From the human T2T-CHM13v2.0 reference genome, Homo sapiens, in assembly GCF_009914755.1 (NCBI RefSeq), contig NC_060929.1: a stretch of DNA of 64,000 bases. The stretch is one strand, 5' to 3'. Below are positions 17,833-47,400 of the stretch, piece after piece. The notes under the pieces were generated by a model. That model saw only the letters and a program-made list of their open reading frames with translations. It was not told the DNA's origin and did not search any database. Numbering within the stretch: the first letter of the stretch is position 1; the number at the start of each line of letters is the position of its first letter. The translations under genes were made by a program, and so were the position numbers.

Positions 17833-22638
<4,806 letters not shown>

Positions 22639-34015: not shown

Positions 34016-39676
<5,661 letters not shown>

Positions 39677-40274
39677 AACCCCGGCTGCTCCCCGCCAGCC
39701 TCTGCCGGCCCGCACTCTCAGCCCAGCGCGACCTCTGGAGCTACTGCGCCTGCAAGCCCAGCCTCTCTGCGCCGCAGGCTGCGGGGCCAGCTGGCGCCGC
39801 ACAAATACGGGGCGGGACACGGGGCGGGACACGGGCCGGTCCCGGGGGAGGGCCTGAGCCGCACAGCCCGCCCAGGGGTGGTGCGTGTAAACGGGCGTCT
39901 GGATCCCCGAATGGTTGCGTGTTTCCGTGTGTGGGTCCGGGGGAGGCCCACGAACGCCAGCGAAACCGCTGACACCACCGCCCAACTATGAACTCATCAG
40001 GCGCCTGAAGACCGACACGCCGAACATGCGCCGCGCGCACTCGCGCACGAGTGAGATCATCGCGCCCCGGTCGTGAGTGCGCTCACACGCAGCCTGAGAC
40101 TCGACGGGAGGGGGTCACGTGGAAGTATCTGAGAGAGGCGTACTTGGCCACTAGGAAAGCACCTCCCCCTTTCCAAAAATGCTCCGGAAGTGCCTTCGCC
40201 CTCCGTAAAGATGGCCGGGGCAGTCGGCACGAGGGAGGCGGGGATGCGCCTGCGCAACAAGTTCGGCGGGGAAG

Positions 40275-42193
40275 ATGGCGGATGACAAGGTGAGTGGCCG
40301 TGGGGGTGATCTGCAGCCGGGCGTGGTCTTCACTCTCCTTGACCTTTTTAGTTCCGGGGAGAAGCGACTCTGGAGCGGCTCAGGAGTGAGGATGTCCCTT
40401 GTTTCTTCTGCGGCTCCTGTCAACTGCCTCAACAGTGTGGAGTGGTGTGGGGAGAGCATTCGGCGAGGCGGGAGGAGCCGTGGATCCCCCAGATGTCCCC
40501 TCCTGGGAACCATCACGAACCCGTTACTAGCACAGACTCAAAAACATTCACCCTTAAACACTCCTGACTTTACCCCATTCCCTAGCTCCCGAAATTTTCT
40601 TCCCAGTGACACGATGTTTCCAATCACACGGACACTCACACCACCCTCATTCAAACACTCCTTTGCATACACTCTGAATTTCATACTTATATGCGATCAA
40701 AATCACTCAGTCCATTTACTTACACACTTGCCGACAGTCTTTTTTGTCATTCTCAGTCACATCCAGTCACTCACATTCAGTTTGGGATGTCCTTGGGAAG
40801 AAAGAGGTAAAGCCCATCCAGGAACCAAGACAATAAAATTGTCCAGGAAACTGCCTCGGTCCATTACTCACCATTGGTCTAGAAGCTCAGCATTACCCAC
40901 ACATTTACTAAATGTCAGGCACTAGAACATAGTAGCCAAGACAGACTGGTCACGACTTTCAAGGAGCTCATAATGGAGTCAGTAGTGGTTTCCTGATGGA
41001 CCTAATTAAAGGTCCCTAGCTGTCCCTCCTGCCTTTCCTACATACTGCTTGCTATATAAAATTCTTGTCAAGGTTGATGTAAGTTACTGGTTCAGATCCC
41101 ATCTGTCAGTCCCTTCCTGGCCCTCATTTGAATTCTGTGCTTTTCAATGCTTTTCTTTCTTTGCCACTGCCATCTCAGGAAGCTTTTATAGGAAAAGGTC
41201 TTTCTGGCTCACCCCATCCCCTCCCAATTCCCAGCTTCTGATGGAATTGAGCAAGGGGTGGGGCTTAGTCAGACTGCTGGAGCCAGCCTCTCGCTTGTCC
41301 TAGGATTCTCTGCCTAAGCTTAAGGACCTGGCATTTCTCAAGAACCAGCTGGAAAGCCTGCAGCGGCGTGTAGAAGACGAAGTCAACAGTGGAGTGGGCC
41401 AGGTAAGGACTGTCCCACCCCACCCCTGCCTTAGGCTTTATTGCCCAACATGCTCTTGAGAGTGTTAAATGGATGGTAGAGATTTCTTCAGCAAGTGATT
41501 ATTGAGGGCCTATTCTCAGTCACCCTAAGGACAATTTTTCTGAATGGCACATGAACTAATATCTTAAGTAGTGGTTAAGTAGGTGAAGAGGGGAGGAAAG
41601 AACATTCCAGGCAGAACAGCATATGTAAAGGCCTTGTGGTAGGAAGTAGCATTATAAACATGAGGGGTGAAAGGAGGTCCATTTGGCTACAGTAGTTGGG
41701 GAGCATGCTAGGAAATGAGGCTGGAGAAACCGGCAGGGCTAGGGGCATCTCTGACCTTGTGTGGCGGTGGAGTTCTATGGTTGGAGCTTTCTGACCCCAG
41801 GGTTCTGAGATTGTGTGATCAGAACTGCTTGGTTCTTTTTCTGGCCCCAGAACCTTGGGAAAAATCTGGAGAAAATACCACGGTTGTCCAGGGTGAGGAG
41901 GAGCTGGTGGTGGAATGCTCTAATCCCAGCTTGAGTAGCCCCTGGACAGTCAGGAAGGAGCCTAGCTAAGTTTCCTTCTGCATTTTTCTCTGCAGGATGG
42001 CTCGCTGTTGTCCTCCCCGTTCCTCAAGGGATTCCTGGCTGGCTATGTGGTGGCCAAACTGAGGGCATCAGCAGTATTGGGCTTTGCTGTGGGCACCTGC
42101 ACTGGCATCTATGCGGCTCAGGCATATGCTGTGCCCAACGTGGAGAAGACATTAAGGGACTATTTGCAGTTGCTACGCAAGGGGCCCGACTAG
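40275..42193 (+). CDS. SLC35A4: SLC35A4 upstream-ORF microprotein (SLC35A4-MP / AltSLC35A4), 103 aa, spliced
   Basis: Exons 40275-40289, 41304-41402, 41996-42193 total 312 nt, all phase 0. Strong Kozak aagATGG. MADDKDSLPKLKDLAFLKNQLESLQRRVEDEVNSGVGQDGSLLSSPFLKGFLAGYVVAKLRASAVLGFAVGTCTGIYAAQAYAVPNVEKTLRDYLQLLRKGPD*. Confidence 0.9.
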
Positions 42194-42600
42194 CTCTAGG
42201 TGCCATGGAAGAGGCAGGATGAGCAGCTCAGCCTTCAGGTGGAGACACTTTATCTGGATTCCCCAGCTGTCATCCATTTGCTATCTCCAACTTTCCTGCC
42301 ACCTTCATCCTTGCCTCCCTTCCTGCAGATTGTGGACAGTAGTTCCTCAGCCTGCACCCTGGATTCCTTCTTCCCCTTCCTAGCTCCATGGGACTCGCCC
42401 CAAGACTGTGGCTTCAAGGACCACCAGCCCCTTACTCTTCAAGCCCTGACTGTGGAGTTGGTAGATGCCTCTGATCCTCAGTATTCTCTCTGGCAATGTT
42501 CCACGGCTTCTCCTTCCTGGGAGCTGGCTCCATAACTTGATTTTCCCCAAACGTGTTGCAATCCCTGCTGCCCCTTAGCCACCCAGGGTCTTGTGTGGGT

Positions 42601-43575
42601 ATGAGTGTAGAGGATGGGGGTATGCCAGGCCTGGGCCGTCCCAGGCAGGCCCGCTGGACCCTGATGCTACTCCTATCCACTGCCATGTACGGTGCCCATG
42701 CCCCATTGCTGGCACTGTGCCATGTGGACGGCCGAGTGCCCTTCCGGCCCTCCTCAGCCGTGCTGCTGACTGAGCTGACCAAGCTACTGTTATGCGCCTT
42801 CTCCCTTCTGGTAGGCTGGCAAGCATGGCCCCAGGGGCCCCCACCCTGGCGCCAGGCTGCTCCCTTCGCACTATCAGCCCTGCTCTATGGCGCTAACAAC
42901 AACCTGGTGATCTATCTTCAGCGTTACATGGACCCCAGCACCTACCAGGTGCTGAGTAATCTCAAGATTGGAAGCACAGCTGTGCTCTACTGCCTCTGCC
43001 TCCGGCACCGCCTCTCTGTGCGTCAGGGGTTAGCGCTGCTGCTGCTGATGGCTGCGGGAGCCTGCTATGCAGCAGGGGGCCTTCAAGTTCCCGGGAACAC
43101 CCTTCCCAGTCCCCCTCCAGCAGCTGCTGCCAGCCCCATGCCCCTGCATATCACTCCGCTAGGCCTGCTGCTCCTCATTCTGTACTGCCTCATCTCAGGC
43201 TTGTCGTCAGTGTACACAGAGCTGCTCATGAAGCGACAGCGGCTGCCCCTGGCACTTCAGAACCTCTTCCTCTACACTTTTGGTGTGCTTCTGAATCTAG
43301 GTCTGCATGCTGGCGGCGGCTCTGGCCCAGGCCTCCTGGAAGGTTTCTCAGGATGGGCAGCACTCGTGGTGCTGAGCCAGGCACTAAATGGACTGCTCAT
43401 GTCTGCTGTCATGAAGCATGGCAGCAGCATCACACGCCTCTTTGTGGTGTCCTGCTCGCTGGTGGTCAACGCCGTGCTCTCAGCAGTCCTGCTACGGCTG
43501 CAGCTCACAGCCGCCTTCTTCCTGGCCACATTGCTCATTGGCCTGGCCATGCGCCTGTACTATGGCAGCCGCTAG
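42601..43575 (+). CDS. SLC35A4: Nucleotide-sugar transporter family protein SLC35A4, 324 aa, CDS within one exon
   Basis: MSVEDGGMPG...RLYYGSR*; multi-TM; NST motifs ELTKL, YQVLSNLKI, SGLSSVYTELLMK, GLLMSAVMK. Confidence 0.96.
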   Translation: MSVEDGGMPGLGRPRQARWTLMLLLSTAMYGAHAPLLALCHVDGRVPFRPSSAVLLTELTKLLLCAFSLLVGWQAWPQGPPPWRQAAPFALSALLYGANNNLVIYLQRYMDPSTYQVLSNLKIGSTAVLYCLCLRHRLSVRQGLALLLLMAAGACYAAGGLQVPGNTLPSPPPAAAASPMPLHITPLGLLLLILYCLISGLSSVYTELLMKRQRLPLALQNLFLYTFGVLLNLGLHAGGGSGPGLLEGFSGWAALVVLSQALNGLLMSAVMKHGSSITRLFVVSCSLVVNAVLSAVLLRLQLTAAFFLATLLIGLAMRLYYGSR

Positions 43576-44486
43576 TCCCTGACAACTTCCACCCTGATTC
43601 CGGACCCTGTAGATTGGGCGCCACCACCAGATCCCCCTCCCAGGCCTTCCTCCCTCTCCCATCAGCAGCCCTGTAACAAGTGCCTTGTGAGAAAAGCTGG
43701 AGAAGTGAGGGCAGCCAGGTTATTCTCTGGAGGTTGGTGGATGAAGGGGTACCCCTAGGAGATGTGAAGTGTGGGTTTGGTTAAGGAAATGCTTACCATC
43801 CCCCACCCCCAACCAAGTTCTTCCAGACTAAAGAATTAAGGTAACATCAATACCTAGGCCTGAGAAATAACCCCATCCTTGTTGGGCAGCTCCCTGCTTT
43901 GTCCTGCATGAACAGAGTTGATGAAAGTGGGGTGTGGGCAACAAGTGGCTTTCCTTGCCTACTTTAGTCACCCAGCAGAGCCACTGGAGCTGGCTAGTCC
44001 AGCCCAGCCATGGTGCATGACTCTTCCATAAGGGATCCTCACCCTTCCACTTTCATGCAAGAAGGCCCAGTTGCCACAGATTATACAACCATTACCCAAA
44101 CCACTCTGACAGTCTCCTCCAGTTCCAGCAATGCCTAGAGACATGCTCCCTGCCCTCTCCACAGTGCTGCTCCCCACACCTAGCCTTTGTTCTGGAAACC
44201 CCAGAGAGGGCTGGGCTTGACTCATCTCAGGGAATGTAGCCCCTGGGCCCTGGCTTAAGCCGACACTCCTGACCTCTCTGTTCACCCTGAGGGCTGTCTT
44301 GAAGCCCGCTACCCACTCTGAGGCTCCTAGGAGGTACCATGCTTCCCACTCTGGGGCCTGCCCCTGCCTAGCAGTCTCCCAGCTCCCAACAGCCTGGGGA
44401 AGCTCTGCACAGAGTGACCTGAGACCAGGTACAGGAAACCTGTAGCTCAATCAGTGTCTCTTTAACTGCATAAGCAATAAGATCTT

Positions 44487-44492
44487 AATAAA
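44487..44492 (+). terminator. SLC35A4: SLC35A4 polyadenylation signal
   Basis: AATAAA ~910 nt after the stop, with GT-rich downstream element. Confidence 0.75.
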
Positions 44493-47400
44493 GTCTTCTA
44501 GGCTGTAGGGTGGTTCCTACAACCACAGCCATGATTGTCTTGTGTCTTCTGTCTGCGCAACTCCCCTCAAACAATTTTGTTCCTCTGGGGTCCTGAGTAT
44601 CTTAATTCTGGGATAACTTTTAGACTAAGAAAAAATTGTTTTCTCCAGGCTGTTGCCAGTGGCATTATTTCCTGTGAGAGTTCCATGGAACTGAGACATT
44701 TCCCTGTCATAGAGCTTTTGAAATTTCCCTGGAGCACAAAACTTGGGCCCAGGGGAATGCGGAGAGAGTCTTGGGAACAGCAGGTGCTGGGCCGAGCAGG
44801 ACAAACTAGACTCTAGGCCAAAAAACTCTTAAGAAAGCCGATGTGGTTTCGGTTTTCATTTCCTCTGGTTCCCTTACAATTTCTGCCTGTCATCTGTCTT
44901 AAAATCATGGCCAGGGGAATGTCAGGCCCTGATTCTATGATAGAATATGTGGTGAGTTTCTAAAAAAAACCAAGGGGGTTGGGGGGGGGCCCTAGGCCTA
45001 TCTTAGACCTATTAAAGCAGAATCTTAGGGAGTAGTGTTTGGGAATCTTTTTCTTCTTTCTCTTAAGCTCCCTAGGTGGTTCTGATGCACACAGAAGCTT
45101 GTAAGCCACTACTGTGCAGTGTAGAACTATGGACAGACTTGAATTTGAATTCTGGATCTTCCACTTAGCTGACTGTTCTTGGGCAGTTATTTAACCTCTC
45201 CTAGCTTTAGTTGCCTTATCCCTGAAATAAGGATCAAATGGTACCTACTATATGTGGTAGCTGGAGAGGCTAAATAAAATAATATTAGGCACTTAGTAAG
45301 GACTGGAACAATGAGACATGGTTTGTGTTATTAATTATCCATAATAAGGATCAGCTTGGTTTTGTCTCACCTTTTTCTCCCTTCTAGGACCCTCCAGAAT
45401 GAGGAGACAAGAAACTTCCTCTAAAGGGTTCCTGTTAAGGTTTCTCCCCAGGACAGGTCCAGCATGACTACCCCCAGCCTAGTCTGCACCCTGCTGAAGC
45501 TGCTGGTTCTCAGCTTGGAGCTCCTGATTCTGTGTGGCCAGGTTGATGGTTTCTTCCAGGGTGCCCGCCAGCAGGCTGCAGTGATGATGCTCTGTGGTCA
45601 TGGCCCCCTCCTCCCACTGGCCCTGCCAGGCTCAGAATACCTGTGCCCAGATTCAGAGATGCCTGTCACTCAGCCAGCCTTGGAGCCAGCTCAAGGCCTA
45701 CCCTCCATCCCCACTGATGGGCAGCACATGGTGTGTCTGAGCTCGGGTGGCCTGCACATGCAGGTCATAGAGGGCTGCCAGGTCCTGCTCTGCTGTGTTC
45801 CGCTCTTCCTGAAGGGCCTCCAGCTGGAATCTCAGCACCATCTGTTCCTGCTGCCATCTCTGCCTCTCCTCGCAGGCCTTCAGTGATAACACATACTCTT
45901 TGGAGTGCCACCTGTGTGCCAGGCTCTGTGCTAAATACTTCAGGTGTATTATTTTATCCAATAACAACCATATGTGGCATTGCCATCTTACAGATTTGGC
46001 AACAGTGGATCAAAGAAGTGACCTAACTTGCCCAAATTCTCATGGCTAGTAAAGGTCAGAGCTGACATGGCACATGCCTTTCAATGGTTTGCAGCTCTCC
46101 TTGGGGTAAAGTCCAAAGCCAGAGCTGTGGCACACACTTGTCTCTTTAGCCTTGCTTCTGACTACGCACCTGTTCAGCTCCAGCCAGACTGGAGAATTTG
46201 CAGTTCCCAGACCCACTTTGCCATTGCTTCCCTCTGAACTTTTGCTTATACTGTTTTGTCTTCTCTAAGAACATGTCCCCACTCCACCCACCCCCCATCA
46301 GTTACTGATGAGCAGTAACTGCCCTTGTTAAGCTCAGTGTCCAGTGAATTCCCCTGGCTGATCTCTGCCTGTCCTTTGAGGCTCAACTTAGATTCCATCT
46401 CCTCTGATCCACTCCAGCCTGGGTCAGATATGCCTTTTTGGTCCCACACAACCCTAGATCCCCCATCCCATCACTTAGCACTGAGAATTGCCTCATCTAT
46501 CCCTGACAAGGCTGTGAGGGCCATGAGAGAGGGTATGAACTGGTCGGTTGTGATTGATGATGGATCCTAGCCCCTAGCACAGTGCCTGGACCAATTAGAG
46601 CCTCAAGTCCCCTATTTGACCCTCCTTACCTCCTCTTCAGCCACCAGGCCTTTGACCTGGTCATCTGCCACCTCCTCCTTCTGTTCCAAATGCTTCAGCT
46701 TCTCTCGAATCCAAATTTGGTGCTGCTCCCTCAGTCTCTGCCTCTGGGCCTGGGCCAAGAAGAGCGGCCGGGCCACATCTGGTATCTGCTGGGCTTGGTC
46801 AGAAGTTCATGTGTGTGCACGGATTTAGGACCAGAGCCCAACTTTTCCAATAGAACCTCATCACCAGGGCTGCTCCCAGAACAACATCCAGGACCTAACT
46901 AGCCTGGAAGAGCTTGTAGCCTGGGCAGAGACTCAGGAGGCCATGGTGGGGAGAGGAAGGTAGTGGCTCTGCCAGGAGGTGCCATAGTGCCTCTAAGGAT
47001 CCTATACCCTTAATCCAATAAGTAGGAAAACAGTCCCTCCCCATGGCCTTGCCTTAGGGGTCTAGTCACCTTCAGGTCCTTTATTTGTCAAAAACTTCAT
47101 ATTTCTCCCTGATATTGGGGCAGGGTAAGCAGGGGCACATTAGCTGGGCTCTGCAGCTCTTCACTCCCCCTACAGCTTCTAGTCGTTCCTGGGGTACATG
47201 AGGTATTACCTATTCCTTAGGGTGCCTGAGAGGATTCTTTTGGTGGAGCCACGCCTTAGAGTTGCCATTCTTCCTGCCACTAGAGGAAAATGTAATTAAT
47301 CACACCAAAGGCAGGGAAGACGTCCCACTCCCAGCTCATCCCCAAGTCCCAGACCCACCTTGGGGCTCTCCCTCGAGGCATGGGCTCTGGTTTACTGGTG

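What the first reader, a model, noticed from the sequence alone, without database searches (positions are those of the whole stretch)
40275..43575. SLC35A4 mRNA is bicistronic: a spliced 103-aa upstream protein precedes the transporter
Seen: the first two exons and the start of exon 3 form a 312-nt ORF with phase-0 junctions and a strong Kozak (aagATGG). The 324-aa transporter ORF starts ~400 nt further down in exon 3 with weaker context (ggtATGa). All introns interrupt the small ORF and none the transporter ORF. Established: this uORF product has been reported as a mitochondrial inner-membrane microprotein, and SLC35A4 as translated under eIF2 stress. Inference: the transporter ORF may have landed, e.g. 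as a retrocopy, in the 3'UTR of an older small gene.
Basis: partly seen in the sequence, partly recalled or inferred. Interest (0 to 1): 0.7.

Follow-up and report, generated by a model that had tools for sequence, protein, structure and literature searches.

The report
Known two-protein SLC35A4 messenger RNA
This human gene makes one messenger RNA carrying two separate proteins, a small mitochondrial protein followed by a sugar transporter; the arrangement is real but is already annotated and published, including the idea that the transporter arrived as a retrocopy.

Summary
ATG 40275 (aagATGg) opens a 312-nt ORF spliced over three exons with phase-0 GT-AG junctions (103 aa). The intronless 324-aa transporter ORF starts 407 nt after its stop, at 42601 (ggtATGa).

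It is also already known. RefSeq annotates both ORFs. Papers describe the upstream product (SLC35A4-MP / AltSLC35A4 / STREMI) as an inner-mitochondrial-membrane microprotein and the downstream ORF as induced by the integrated stress response.

My own checks agree:
- Pfam assigns DUF4535 to the small ORF and Nuc_sug_transp to the transporter.
- The microprotein is 72-100 of 103 residues identical in 18 jawed vertebrates.
- SLC35A1/2/3 are split at shared profile positions where SLC35A4 is continuous.
- A chr4 processed pseudogene copies the whole spliced bicistronic mRNA.
- Polarising parent-pseudogene differences with orthologues shows purifying selection on both ORFs: 19 vs 2 and 56 vs 11.

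One small unreported detail: the microprotein's start lies in a TISU-like element (11 of 12 bases) 16 nt from the cap.

No direct retrocopy hallmark survives.

The parts
39600..40400 (.). CpG island serving as a head-to-head promoter region shared with APBB3. APBB3 exon 1 ends at 40029 on the minus strand and the SLC35A4 TSS is at 40259.
   Evidence: In one search, CpG observed/expected is 0.67-1.14 only in 39600-40399. It is 0.07-0.14 in 42200-42599, just upstream of the transporter ORF. Gene positions come from the hub's annotation table.
40259..40289 (+). Exon 1: a 16-nt 5' leader plus the first 5 codons of the microprotein.
   Evidence: The chr4 processed pseudogene begins at mRNA position 1, which corresponds to 40259.
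40271..40282 (+). TISU-like / YY1-like element GAAGATGGCGGA around the microprotein's start codon.
   Evidence: In one search it matches SAASATGGCGGC with 1 mismatch. The window holds 3 such matches against 0.58 expected. The consensus and the short-leader rule were read. Function was not tested.
40275..40289 (+). Microprotein CDS part 1 (codons 1-5).
   Evidence: The five residues are identical in 16 of 18 orthologues.
41304..41402 (+). Microprotein CDS part 2 (codons 6-38), phase 0 at both ends.
   Evidence: 20-31 of 33 residues are identical in 18 orthologues.
41996..42193 (+). Microprotein CDS part 3 (codons 39-103 plus TAG). It holds the hydrophobic segment and the DUF4535 match.
   Evidence: 19-residue windows with mean Kyte-Doolittle hydropathy of 1.4 or more span residues 51-70; 46-64 of 65 residues are identical in 18 orthologues. 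PF15054, 37.5 bits against a 28.3 cut-off.
42194..42600 (+). Intercistronic spacer of 407 nt with five further AUGs (42205, 42219, 42388, 42465, 42496). None of their ORFs overlaps the transporter AUG.
   Evidence: It has no unusual fold (z = -0.44), no Rfam match, no poly(A) signal and no Pfam match for the 54-codon ORF.
42601..43575 (+). Intronless transporter CDS, SLC35A4 (324 aa plus TAG).
   Evidence: PF04142, 104.5 bits against a cut-off of 27. One search lists the orthologues.
43576..44531 (+). 3'UTR. The only AATAAA between the first stop codon and the mRNA end is at 44487.
   Evidence: The pseudogene alignment runs to mRNA position 2662 of 2666.

Best explanation
This is the known human SLC35A4 locus. 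One capped, spliced, polyadenylated mRNA of about 2.7 kb carries two non-overlapping protein-coding ORFs.

The cap-proximal ORF is spliced from three exons and has a strong, TISU-like start 16 nt from the cap. It encodes a 103-aa single-pass inner-mitochondrial-membrane microprotein of family DUF4535, published as SLC35A4-MP, AltSLC35A4 and STREMI. This is the main product under basal conditions.

Translation of that ORF, helped by ten further upstream AUGs, keeps ribosomes from the downstream intronless ORF. The downstream ORF encodes a 324-aa nucleotide-sugar-transporter homologue.

When eIF2 is phosphorylated, fewer ribosomes start at the first AUG and more reach the transporter AUG. I infer that this happens by bypass of the cap-proximal AUG rather than by reinitiation after a 103-codon ORF.

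The arrangement most probably arose in an early jawed vertebrate, when a cDNA copy of a multi-exon SLC35A4 gene was inserted in or just after the microprotein gene and came to be co-transcribed with it. The parental copy was later lost.

Basis of each part:
- Shown here: anatomy, family membership, conservation, constraint on both ORFs, and a full-length bicistronic mRNA fossil.
- Taken from papers: localisation, knockout phenotypes, stress response, and gene structures in lancelets and cyclostomes.
- Inferred: the bypass mechanism and the retroposition.
For: Anatomy.

Families: the exon-3 part matches PF15054 DUF4535 (E 1.8e-9, 37.5 bits, cut-off 28.3). The transporter matches PF04142 (E 7.9e-30, 104.5 bits, cut-off 27).

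One transcript:
- Only one CpG island lies at the 5' end, and only one AATAAA (44487) lies between the first stop codon and the mRNA end.
- A chr4 locus aligns to the spliced mRNA from position 1 to 2662 of 2666 at 82.4% identity, with the exon 1-2 junction joined exactly (exon 2-3 follows from the unbroken alignment) and an 11 of 14 flanking direct repeat. The whole bicistronic mRNA was therefore reverse-transcribed in the germ line.

Conservation:
- 296 of 297 scored candidates match at E <= 0.001.
- Human versus 18 chosen vertebrates gives 72-100 of 103 identical residues, and sharks and rays give 76-78.

Constraint since the pseudogene split off:
- Of 22 amino-acid differences in the small ORF, orthologues side with the functional copy at 19, with the pseudogene at 2, and 1 is unclear (binomial 2.2e-4).
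- Of 69 differences in the transporter ORF, the counts are 56 vs 11 with 2 ties (2.1e-8).
- Non-CpG divergence is 0.099 and 0.100 in the two ORFs against 0.137 and 0.139 in the spacer and 3'UTR.

Intron loss: the PF04142 profile hits SLC35A1, A2 and A3 exon by exon, with breaks near profile positions 60-64 and 115 in all three. SLC35A4 is continuous over 85-314.

Literature:
- Andreev 2015, passages.
- Guo 2026, passages, section 11 and supplements. The uORF AUG is necessary and sufficient for the stress response. The retroposition model is stated. Lancelet homologues are multi-exon. Cyclostomes have the microprotein gene alone.
- Rocha 2025, passages.
Against: - Rocha et al. 2025 state that the SLC35A4 transporter protein is undetectable by proteomics. 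'Two proteins' therefore rests on ribosome profiling, tagged constructs and the sequence constraint that I measured, not on detection of the native protein.
- No retrocopy hallmark survives at the transporter ORF. There is no A-rich 15-mer in 42194-45500, and I did not look for target-site duplications around the ORF. No multi-exon parent remains in the human genome.
- SLC35A2 and SLC35A5 already carry the C-terminal two thirds of the domain in one exon. Fewer introns therefore had to be lost than the phrase 'intronless versus multi-exon' suggests.
- The non-CpG divergence deficit of the small ORF alone is not significant (Fisher p = 0.08).
- The bypass mechanism is my inference. Guo 2026 report that mutating the Kozak context did not abolish the stress effect on the microprotein's translation.
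Confidence: 0.9

Rival explanations
1. The upstream ORF is only a regulatory uORF. Its translation matters but its peptide does not.
For: It does repress the downstream ORF in reporters. Most uORFs act in this way.
Against: - 40 of 103 positions are invariant across human and 18 vertebrates from mammals to sharks.
- Since the chr4 pseudogene split off, 19 of 22 amino-acid differences lie on the pseudogene lineage against 2 on the functional copy.
- The ORF is a Pfam DUF4535 member.
- Knockout phenotypes and inner-membrane localisation are published.
Confidence: 0.02
2. The small ORF arose de novo inside the 5'UTR of an existing SLC35A4 gene, with no gene joining.
For: Many uORF microproteins are young. 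The two ORFs share no sequence similarity.
Against: - The small ORF belongs to an older family. DUF4535 scores above its cut-off, and the C-terminal part is 45% identical over 29 residues to another human DUF4535 ORF.
- Guo 2026 report lamprey and hagfish orthologues with no SLC35A4 nearby and homology to STMP1.
- All introns lie in the small ORF.
Confidence: 0.03
3. The two genes were joined by a DNA-level rearrangement or plain read-through of neighbours. The transporter lost its introns by another route, such as stepwise loss or conversion by cDNA at its old locus.
For: - No poly(A) relic survives, and I did not search for a target-site duplication.
- SLC35A2 and SLC35A5 show that the family tolerates large merged exons.
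- The published case for retroposition is circumstantial.
Against: - Complete absence of introns in the CDS, which Guo 2026 say holds whenever the gene lies next to the microprotein gene.
- Lancelet homologues are multi-exon.
- A retrocopy has no promoter of its own. That explains why the ORF depends on the host transcript, and I found no CpG island in front of it.
Confidence: 0.2
4. The transporter ORF is reached through an internal ribosome entry site or an internal promoter in the spacer, not by ribosomes coming from the cap.
For: Eleven upstream AUGs make cap-dependent access look hard. Andreev 2015 saw a reporter with this leader keep producing luciferase under arsenite.
Against: - The spacer folds no better than shuffles: z = -0.44, and 31 of 100 shuffles fold at least as well.
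- No Rfam family matches at E <= 1 in 39900-44700.
- There is no CpG island in front of the ORF.
- Removing all AUGs relieves repression, and restoring only the first AUG restores both repression and the stress response. That is scanning-type behaviour.
Confidence: 0.04

Closest known systems
SLC35A4 upstream ORF protein (RefSeq LOC131768270; SLC35A4-MP / AltSLC35A4 / STREMI) with SLC35A4
   Same: It is this very locus. The coordinates equal the RefSeq coding parts in the hub's table. The function, stress regulation and retroposition model are in print.
   Different: Nothing differs in kind. My additions are the chr4 full-length retro-fossil, the lineage-polarised constraint test on both ORFs, and the TISU-like start context.
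MIEF1 upstream ORF (the other candidate bicistronic mRNA of Andreev 2015)
   Same: A conserved uORF encodes a protein with a Pfam domain, upstream of a main ORF. The ratio of the two translations shifts on eIF2 inactivation.
   Different: It belongs to a different family (LYR, PF05347) and has a 70-aa product. I did not examine that locus.
ATF4-type delayed reinitiation
   Same: The leader represses the main ORF, and repression is relieved under the integrated stress response to a degree similar to the ATF4 leader in reporters.
   Different: The first ORF is 103 codons long rather than a few. No upstream ORF overlaps the main AUG; the last ones end at 42578 and 42540. The first AUG alone suffices for the response.
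STMP1 and other DUF4535 proteins
   Same: They share Pfam family PF15054. The C-terminal part is 45% identical over 29 residues to a 46-aa DUF4535 ORF on chr2. Guo 2026 report the homology.
   Different: The SLC35A4 microprotein has an extra conserved N-terminal half (exons 1-2). It is restricted to vertebrates and is reported not to act on complex III.
[quoted passage not shown]
   Same: It has an AAG-ATG-GCGG core, a leader of 16 nt, and a product that acts in mitochondria.
   Different: The match is 11 of 12 bases (the last C is A). YY1 binding and scanning-free initiation are untested. TISU mRNAs are not known for feeding a second ORF.

Membership tests
Pfam DUF4535 (PF15054) | Profile score above the curated cut-off. 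| tested here: met
   37.5 bits against a cut-off of 28.3, E 1.8e-9, residues 28-58 of the exon-3 part; the same locus scores 37.5 bits in the genome-wide scan.
Nucleotide-sugar transporter (PF04142, SLC35A) | Profile score above the curated cut-off, and a multi-pass membrane protein. | tested here: met
   104.5 bits against a cut-off of 27; multiple hydrophobic segments along the 324 aa. Transport activity was not tested; Guo 2026 say it is still unconfirmed.
Bicistronic mRNA with two functional proteins | Both ORFs lie on one mature transcript. | tested here: met
   Annotation, plus the chr4 processed pseudogene that covers mRNA positions 1-2662 of 2666 with spliced junctions. There is one poly(A) signal and one CpG island.
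Bicistronic mRNA with two functional proteins | Both ORFs are under purifying selection at the protein level. | tested here: met
   19 vs 2 of 22 differences for the small ORF, and 56 vs 11 of 69 for the transporter ORF.
Bicistronic mRNA with two functional proteins | Both proteins are made in cells. | not testable with these tools
   Papers support the microprotein well. [quoted passage not shown]
Retrogene (processed retrocopy) for the transporter ORF | The CDS lacks introns that relatives have at conserved positions. | tested here: met
   SLC35A1/2/3 break near profile positions 60-64 and 115, while SLC35A4 is continuous over 85-314. Lancelet homologues are multi-exon according to the review file of Guo 2026.
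Retrogene (processed retrocopy) for the transporter ORF | A poly(A) tract relic at the 3' end of the insert. | tested here: not met
   no 15-mer with 12 or more A in 42194-45500. This is expected for an event as old as jawed vertebrates, so it is weak evidence.
Retrogene (processed retrocopy) for the transporter ORF | An intron-bearing parental gene elsewhere in the genome. | tested here: not met
   apart from the locus itself, only the chr4 pseudogene and the distant paralogues on chrX and chr3 match. Guo 2026 propose that the parent was lost.
TISU element | Sequence SAASATGGCGGC around the initiating ATG. | tested here: inconclusive
   11 of 12 bases at 40271-40282, with the last position A rather than C. 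The consensus was read.
TISU element | A very short 5'UTR (median 12 nt), with the element close behind the TSS. | tested here: met
   The leader is 16 nt from the RefSeq TSS at 40259, and the pseudogene's 5' end falls at the same base. Andreev 2015 extended an older RefSeq version of the leader by 11 nt, so TSS usage may vary.
TISU element | YY1 binding and leak-free initiation from a short leader. | not testable with these tools
   This needs ChIP or EMSA and reporter assays.
ATF4-type delayed reinitiation | A short permissive first uORF and an inhibitory uORF that overlaps the main start. | tested here: not met
   the first ORF has 103 codons and no upstream ORF overlaps 42601.

The most novel reading that the evidence does not exclude
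The microprotein's start codon is a working TISU/YY1 element on a 16-nt leader. The microprotein would then be made by the scanning-free, cap-proximal initiation typical of respiration genes. The stress switch to the transporter ORF would be a regulated failure of this cap-proximal start (bypass), not reinitiation. That would make this the first case in which a TISU start gates a second cistron. No paper in the searched library holds both 'SLC35A4' and 'TISU'.
Probability: 0.35. Interest if true: 0.35.

Novelty: already known. Interest (0 to 1): 0.12.

Why it matters
The locus is a textbook-grade exception to 'one mRNA, one protein' in vertebrates, and it shows how a retrocopy can survive by riding on a host gene's transcript. 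All of this is already published and annotated, so the finding adds nothing new as stated.

This check adds three things:
- A within-genome fossil showing that the full bicistronic mRNA, with the same ends and splice junctions, existed tens of millions of years ago.
- A simple polarised test showing that the rarely detected transporter ORF is also under purifying selection in the human lineage.
- A pointer to a TISU-like start that could be tested as the basis of the stress switch.

Tried and rejected
- Earlier findings of this scan were not open to the session.
- IRES or structured-spacer idea: the fold z-score is -0.44 and there is no Rfam match at E <= 1. Rejected as unsupported.
- Internal promoter: there is no CpG island in front of the transporter ORF. 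I ran no promoter scan beyond that.
- Retrocopy hallmarks at the transporter ORF: I found no A-rich tract or extra poly(A) signal. I did not search for target-site duplications around so old an insert.
- The 54-codon spacer ORF (42219-42380) and the exon-2 part on its own have no credible Pfam match.
- The region-by-region divergence test reached significance for the transporter ORF (p = 0.007) but not for the small ORF (p = 0.08). I therefore rely on the polarised counts.
- I could not fetch Rocha et al. 2024, J Mol Biol. I know it only from the reference list and introduction of Rocha 2025.
- I could not examine gene structures or synteny in other vertebrates, cyclostomes or lancelets myself. 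The tools hold no such genomes, so those points rest on Guo 2026 and its supplements.
- I ran no structure prediction and no complex prediction, because the topology is published and would not change the verdict.
Full report
**1. Observation**

I read the three stretches directly and rebuilt the mRNA from the annotated exons in a script.

- The first AUG of the transcript is at 40275, 16 nt behind the annotated start at 40259, in the context gggaagATGg.
- The coding pieces 40275-40289, 41304-41402 and 41996-42193 are 15, 99 and 198 nt long. Both junctions fall between codons.
- Both introns are GT-AG: AAG|GTGAGT ... CCTAG|GAT, and CAG|GTAAGG ... CTGCAG|GAT.
- The spliced ORF has 103 codons plus TAG.
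- The second ORF runs uninterrupted from 42601 (gtgggtATGa) to 43575, giving 324 codons.
- It starts 407 nt after the first stop and is in another frame.
- Eleven AUGs precede it. Three of them, including the first, have both A/G at -3 and G at +4.
- No upstream ORF overlaps the transporter AUG; the nearest ones end at 42578 and 42540.

**2. What the two ORFs are**

- The exon-3 part of the small ORF matches Pfam DUF4535 above its cut-off (37.5 against 28.3 bits).
- The long ORF matches the nucleotide-sugar transporter family (104.5 against 27 bits).
- The exon-2 part and the 54-codon spacer ORF match nothing credible.
- The small protein has hydrophobic 19-residue windows spanning residues 51-70. 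The long one has many hydrophobic segments.

**3. Already in print**

A search for 'SLC35A4' plus 'uORF' finds 48 papers, of which 25 were listed.

- In passages of Andreev et al. 2015 (eLife, PMC4383229), the mRNA is among six that are preferentially translated under arsenite. Its leader is said to hold 11 AUGs, and one conserved AUG opens a 102-codon uORF with DUF4535 and a protein-coding pattern of conservation.
- In passages of Rocha et al. 2025 (Sci Adv, PMC12396333), the product is a conserved 103-aa single-pass inner-mitochondrial-membrane microprotein whose knockout disturbs brown-fat mitochondria. The same paper says the transporter itself is undetectable by proteomics.
- Guo et al. 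2026 (EMBO Rep, PMC13303939) I read in passages, in section 11 in full, and through a term search of its supplements.
  - They name the product STREMI and tie it to MICOS/MIC10.
  - They show that removing all AUGs relieves repression, and that the first AUG alone restores both repression and the stress response.
  - They propose that an intronless SLC35A4 retrocopy was inserted at the microprotein locus in jawed vertebrates.
  - Their review file states that lancelet SLC35A4 homologues are multi-exon, and that lamprey and hagfish have the microprotein gene without a nearby SLC35A4.
- A 2026 preprint mentions the locus as a known dual-ORF gene.

**4. A fossil of the whole mRNA**

- Searching the window's own genome with the transporter protein, the exon-3 peptide and the exon-3 DNA turned up a locus on contig C4 (74.64 Mb, minus strand).
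- That locus aligns with the spliced mRNA from position 1 to 2662 of 2666 in one piece: 82.4% identity over 2727 columns with 139 gap columns.
- The exon 1-exon 2 junction is joined exactly, and homology begins at the base that RefSeq gives as the transcription start.
- The 3' end lies 4 nt before the annotated poly(A) site. It is followed by a short CA/A-rich remnant.
- The insert is flanked by a direct repeat beginning AAAGTGCT, with 11 of 14 bases alike by my reading.
- Both ORFs are broken by frameshifts and stops.

This is a processed pseudogene of the entire bicistronic mRNA. It shows, without any expression data, that a transcript with these ends and junctions carried both ORFs in the germ line when the copy was made.

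With K2P distances of 0.16-0.17 in the spacer and 3'UTR, that was tens of millions of years ago. This is only a rough figure resting on assumed neutral rates.

Four papers hold 'SLC35A4' and 'processed pseudogene', of which three were listed. Of the three listed I opened two. In Guo 2026 the passages shown for 'pseudogene' are a general remark and a reference title. The TOGA2 preprint names SLC35A4 only once, in a figure legend on dual ORFs. I did not open the PeptideAtlas audit or see the fourth. I did not check whether genome annotation names the copy.

**5. Conservation and constraint**

The database search with the exon-3 peptide gave 296 matches at E <= 0.001 among 297 candidates, with 120 listed. 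The source names span mammals to sharks and rays.

I chose 18 of the 120 listed hits: named, 102-105 aa, and spread over vertebrate classes.
- Identity to the human protein is 72-100 of 103 residues, and 76-78 for the three cartilaginous fishes.
- Forty positions are invariant.
- All three exon parts are conserved.

I then used the pseudogene as a clock. For each codon where parent and pseudogene differ in amino acid, I asked which state the orthologues carry. Gapped codons were dropped: 3 in the small ORF and 20 in the long one.

| ORF | Differences | Side with the functional copy | Side with the pseudogene | Other | Binomial p |
|---|---|---|---|---|---|
| Small ORF | 22 | 19 (majority of orthologues) | 2 | 1 unclear | 2.2e-4 |
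| Transporter ORF | 69 (including 4 stops) | 56 | 11 | 2 ties | 2.1e-8 |

The transporter counts use 13 named orthologues chosen from the 120 listed of 204 hits. None of them is a fish, because no fish appeared among the top 120.

Both ORFs have therefore been under purifying selection on the human lineage. The small one is under roughly twice as much.

Cruder measures point the same way.
- Non-CpG divergence is 0.099 and 0.100 in the ORFs against 0.137 and 0.139 in the spacer and 3'UTR. This is significant for the long ORF (p = 0.007) but not for the short one (p = 0.08).
- Across species the transporter also evolves faster: 187-196 of 324 identical residues in the four reptiles (turtles, crocodile, anole), against 86-89 of 103 for the microprotein in the turtle, lizard and bird chosen for it.

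**6. Test of the retrocopy idea**

- The PF04142 profile run over the human genome hits the paralogues exon by exon. The gene names below are recalled from their positions.
  - chrX locus (SLC35A2): profile pieces 2-64, 64-115 and 113-315.
  - chr1 locus (SLC35A3): six pieces, with breaks near 60, 115, 160, 220 and 252.
  - chr6 locus (SLC35A1): five pieces, with breaks near 58, 115, 172 and 250.
  - chr3 locus (SLC35A5): one piece, 128-315.
  - SLC35A4: continuous over 85-314.
- At least the shared break near 115 is missing from SLC35A4. The break near 60-64 lies within the same open frame.
- This fits cDNA-mediated intron loss. It is softened by the large terminal exons of SLC35A2 and SLC35A5.
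- No direct hallmark is left. There is no A-rich tract in 42194-45500, only one AATAAA (44487) between the first stop and the mRNA end, and no intron-bearing parent in the human genome.
- The absence of any CpG island in front of the transporter ORF (observed/expected 0.07-0.14, against 0.67-1.14 at 39600-40399) fits a promoterless insert that depends on the host gene.

Whether the insert landed in the host's 3'UTR or just behind it cannot be told from this sequence.

'Older small gene' is true of the locus only. Guo 2026 find SLC35A4-type genes in lancelets, but find the microprotein only in vertebrates, as an offshoot of the STMP1 family. In line with that, the DUF4535 profile finds three other unsplit copies above its cut-off and weaker hits. 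The microprotein's C-terminal part is 45% identical over 29 residues to a 46-aa ORF on chr2.

**7. How it probably works**

- Shown in papers: the first AUG is necessary and sufficient for stress-dependent access to the second ORF, and the other AUGs add repression.
- Seen here: the architecture is not that of ATF4. The first ORF has 103 codons and there is no overlapping inhibitory ORF.
- The spacer shows no sign of a structured entry site. Its fold z-score is -0.44, with 31 of 100 shuffles folding at least as well, and there is no Rfam match.
- The first AUG lies 16 nt from the cap inside GAAGATGGCGGA, which matches the TISU consensus SAASATGGCGGC at 11 of 12 positions.
- The window holds 3 such one-mismatch matches against 0.58 expected. 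One of the other two lacks the ATG.
- The consensus, its YY1 link, the 12-nt median leader and the enrichment in respiration genes are from passages of Elfakess and Dikstein 2011 and 2008.
- No paper in the library holds both 'SLC35A4' and 'TISU'.

From this I infer the following. Under basal conditions nearly all ribosomes start at this cap-proximal site. When ternary complex is scarce a larger share passes it, and some of these reach 42601. This fits the reported modest fall in microprotein translation as transporter translation rises.

This step is inference. The Kozak mutant of Guo 2026 kept the stress effect, and that may count against a simple context-dependent bypass.

**8. Verdict**

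The finding is real, correctly described and correctly interpreted, but it is already annotated and published, including its evolutionary reading. My additions are minor and confirmatory: the chr4 fossil of the full bicistronic mRNA, the polarised constraint on both ORFs, and the TISU-like start.

Noticed in passing
L014:1501-4153 (minus strand) = G000:C4:74641556-74644208, computed from L014's offset: A processed pseudogene of the whole spliced SLC35A4 mRNA. It covers mRNA positions 1-2662 of 2666 at 82.4% identity. Both ORFs are broken, and it is flanked by a direct repeat of about 14 nt beginning AAAGTGCT. I used it as a fossil and as an outgroup-polarised clock.
   Followed up: yes
L015 (C7:56829862-56829945), L016 (C2:202720618-202720737), L018 (C23:46300966-46301052), L020 (C7:136980052-136980105): Three unsplit DUF4535 matches above the Pfam cut-off, plus a weaker partial match at C7:136.98 Mb. 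These are probably STMP1 retrocopies and one exon of the STMP1 gene itself; that name is recalled and was not checked. The chr2 ORF is 45% identical over 29 residues to the microprotein.
   Followed up: partly
Proteins P0125 (Galemys, 400 aa) and P0161 (Podargus, 427 aa, marked 'LOW QUALITY'): These database entries carry both PF15054 and PF04142 in one predicted protein. They are evidently gene models that fused the two ORFs. As a by-product they show that the two ORFs are linked in a mole relative and in a bird.
   Followed up: no
Proteins P0020 and P0143 versus P0026 and P0141 (raccoon dog); P0021 versus P0022 (degu): The raccoon dog has two contigs that each carry a microprotein and a shortened transporter-like protein. 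The degu has microprotein entries on two contigs. These may be further retrocopies of the bicistronic mRNA or assembly duplicates.
   Followed up: no
window 39600-40400: SLC35A4 and APBB3 lie head to head, 230 bp apart, within one CpG island. This is probably a bidirectional promoter (and the hub's table).
   Followed up: partly
window 19176-19187 (minus strand): A second one-mismatch TISU-like match with an intact ATG (CAACATGGCGCC), inside the ANKHD1-EIF4EBP3 read-through intron. It is probably chance or a repeat.
   Followed up: no
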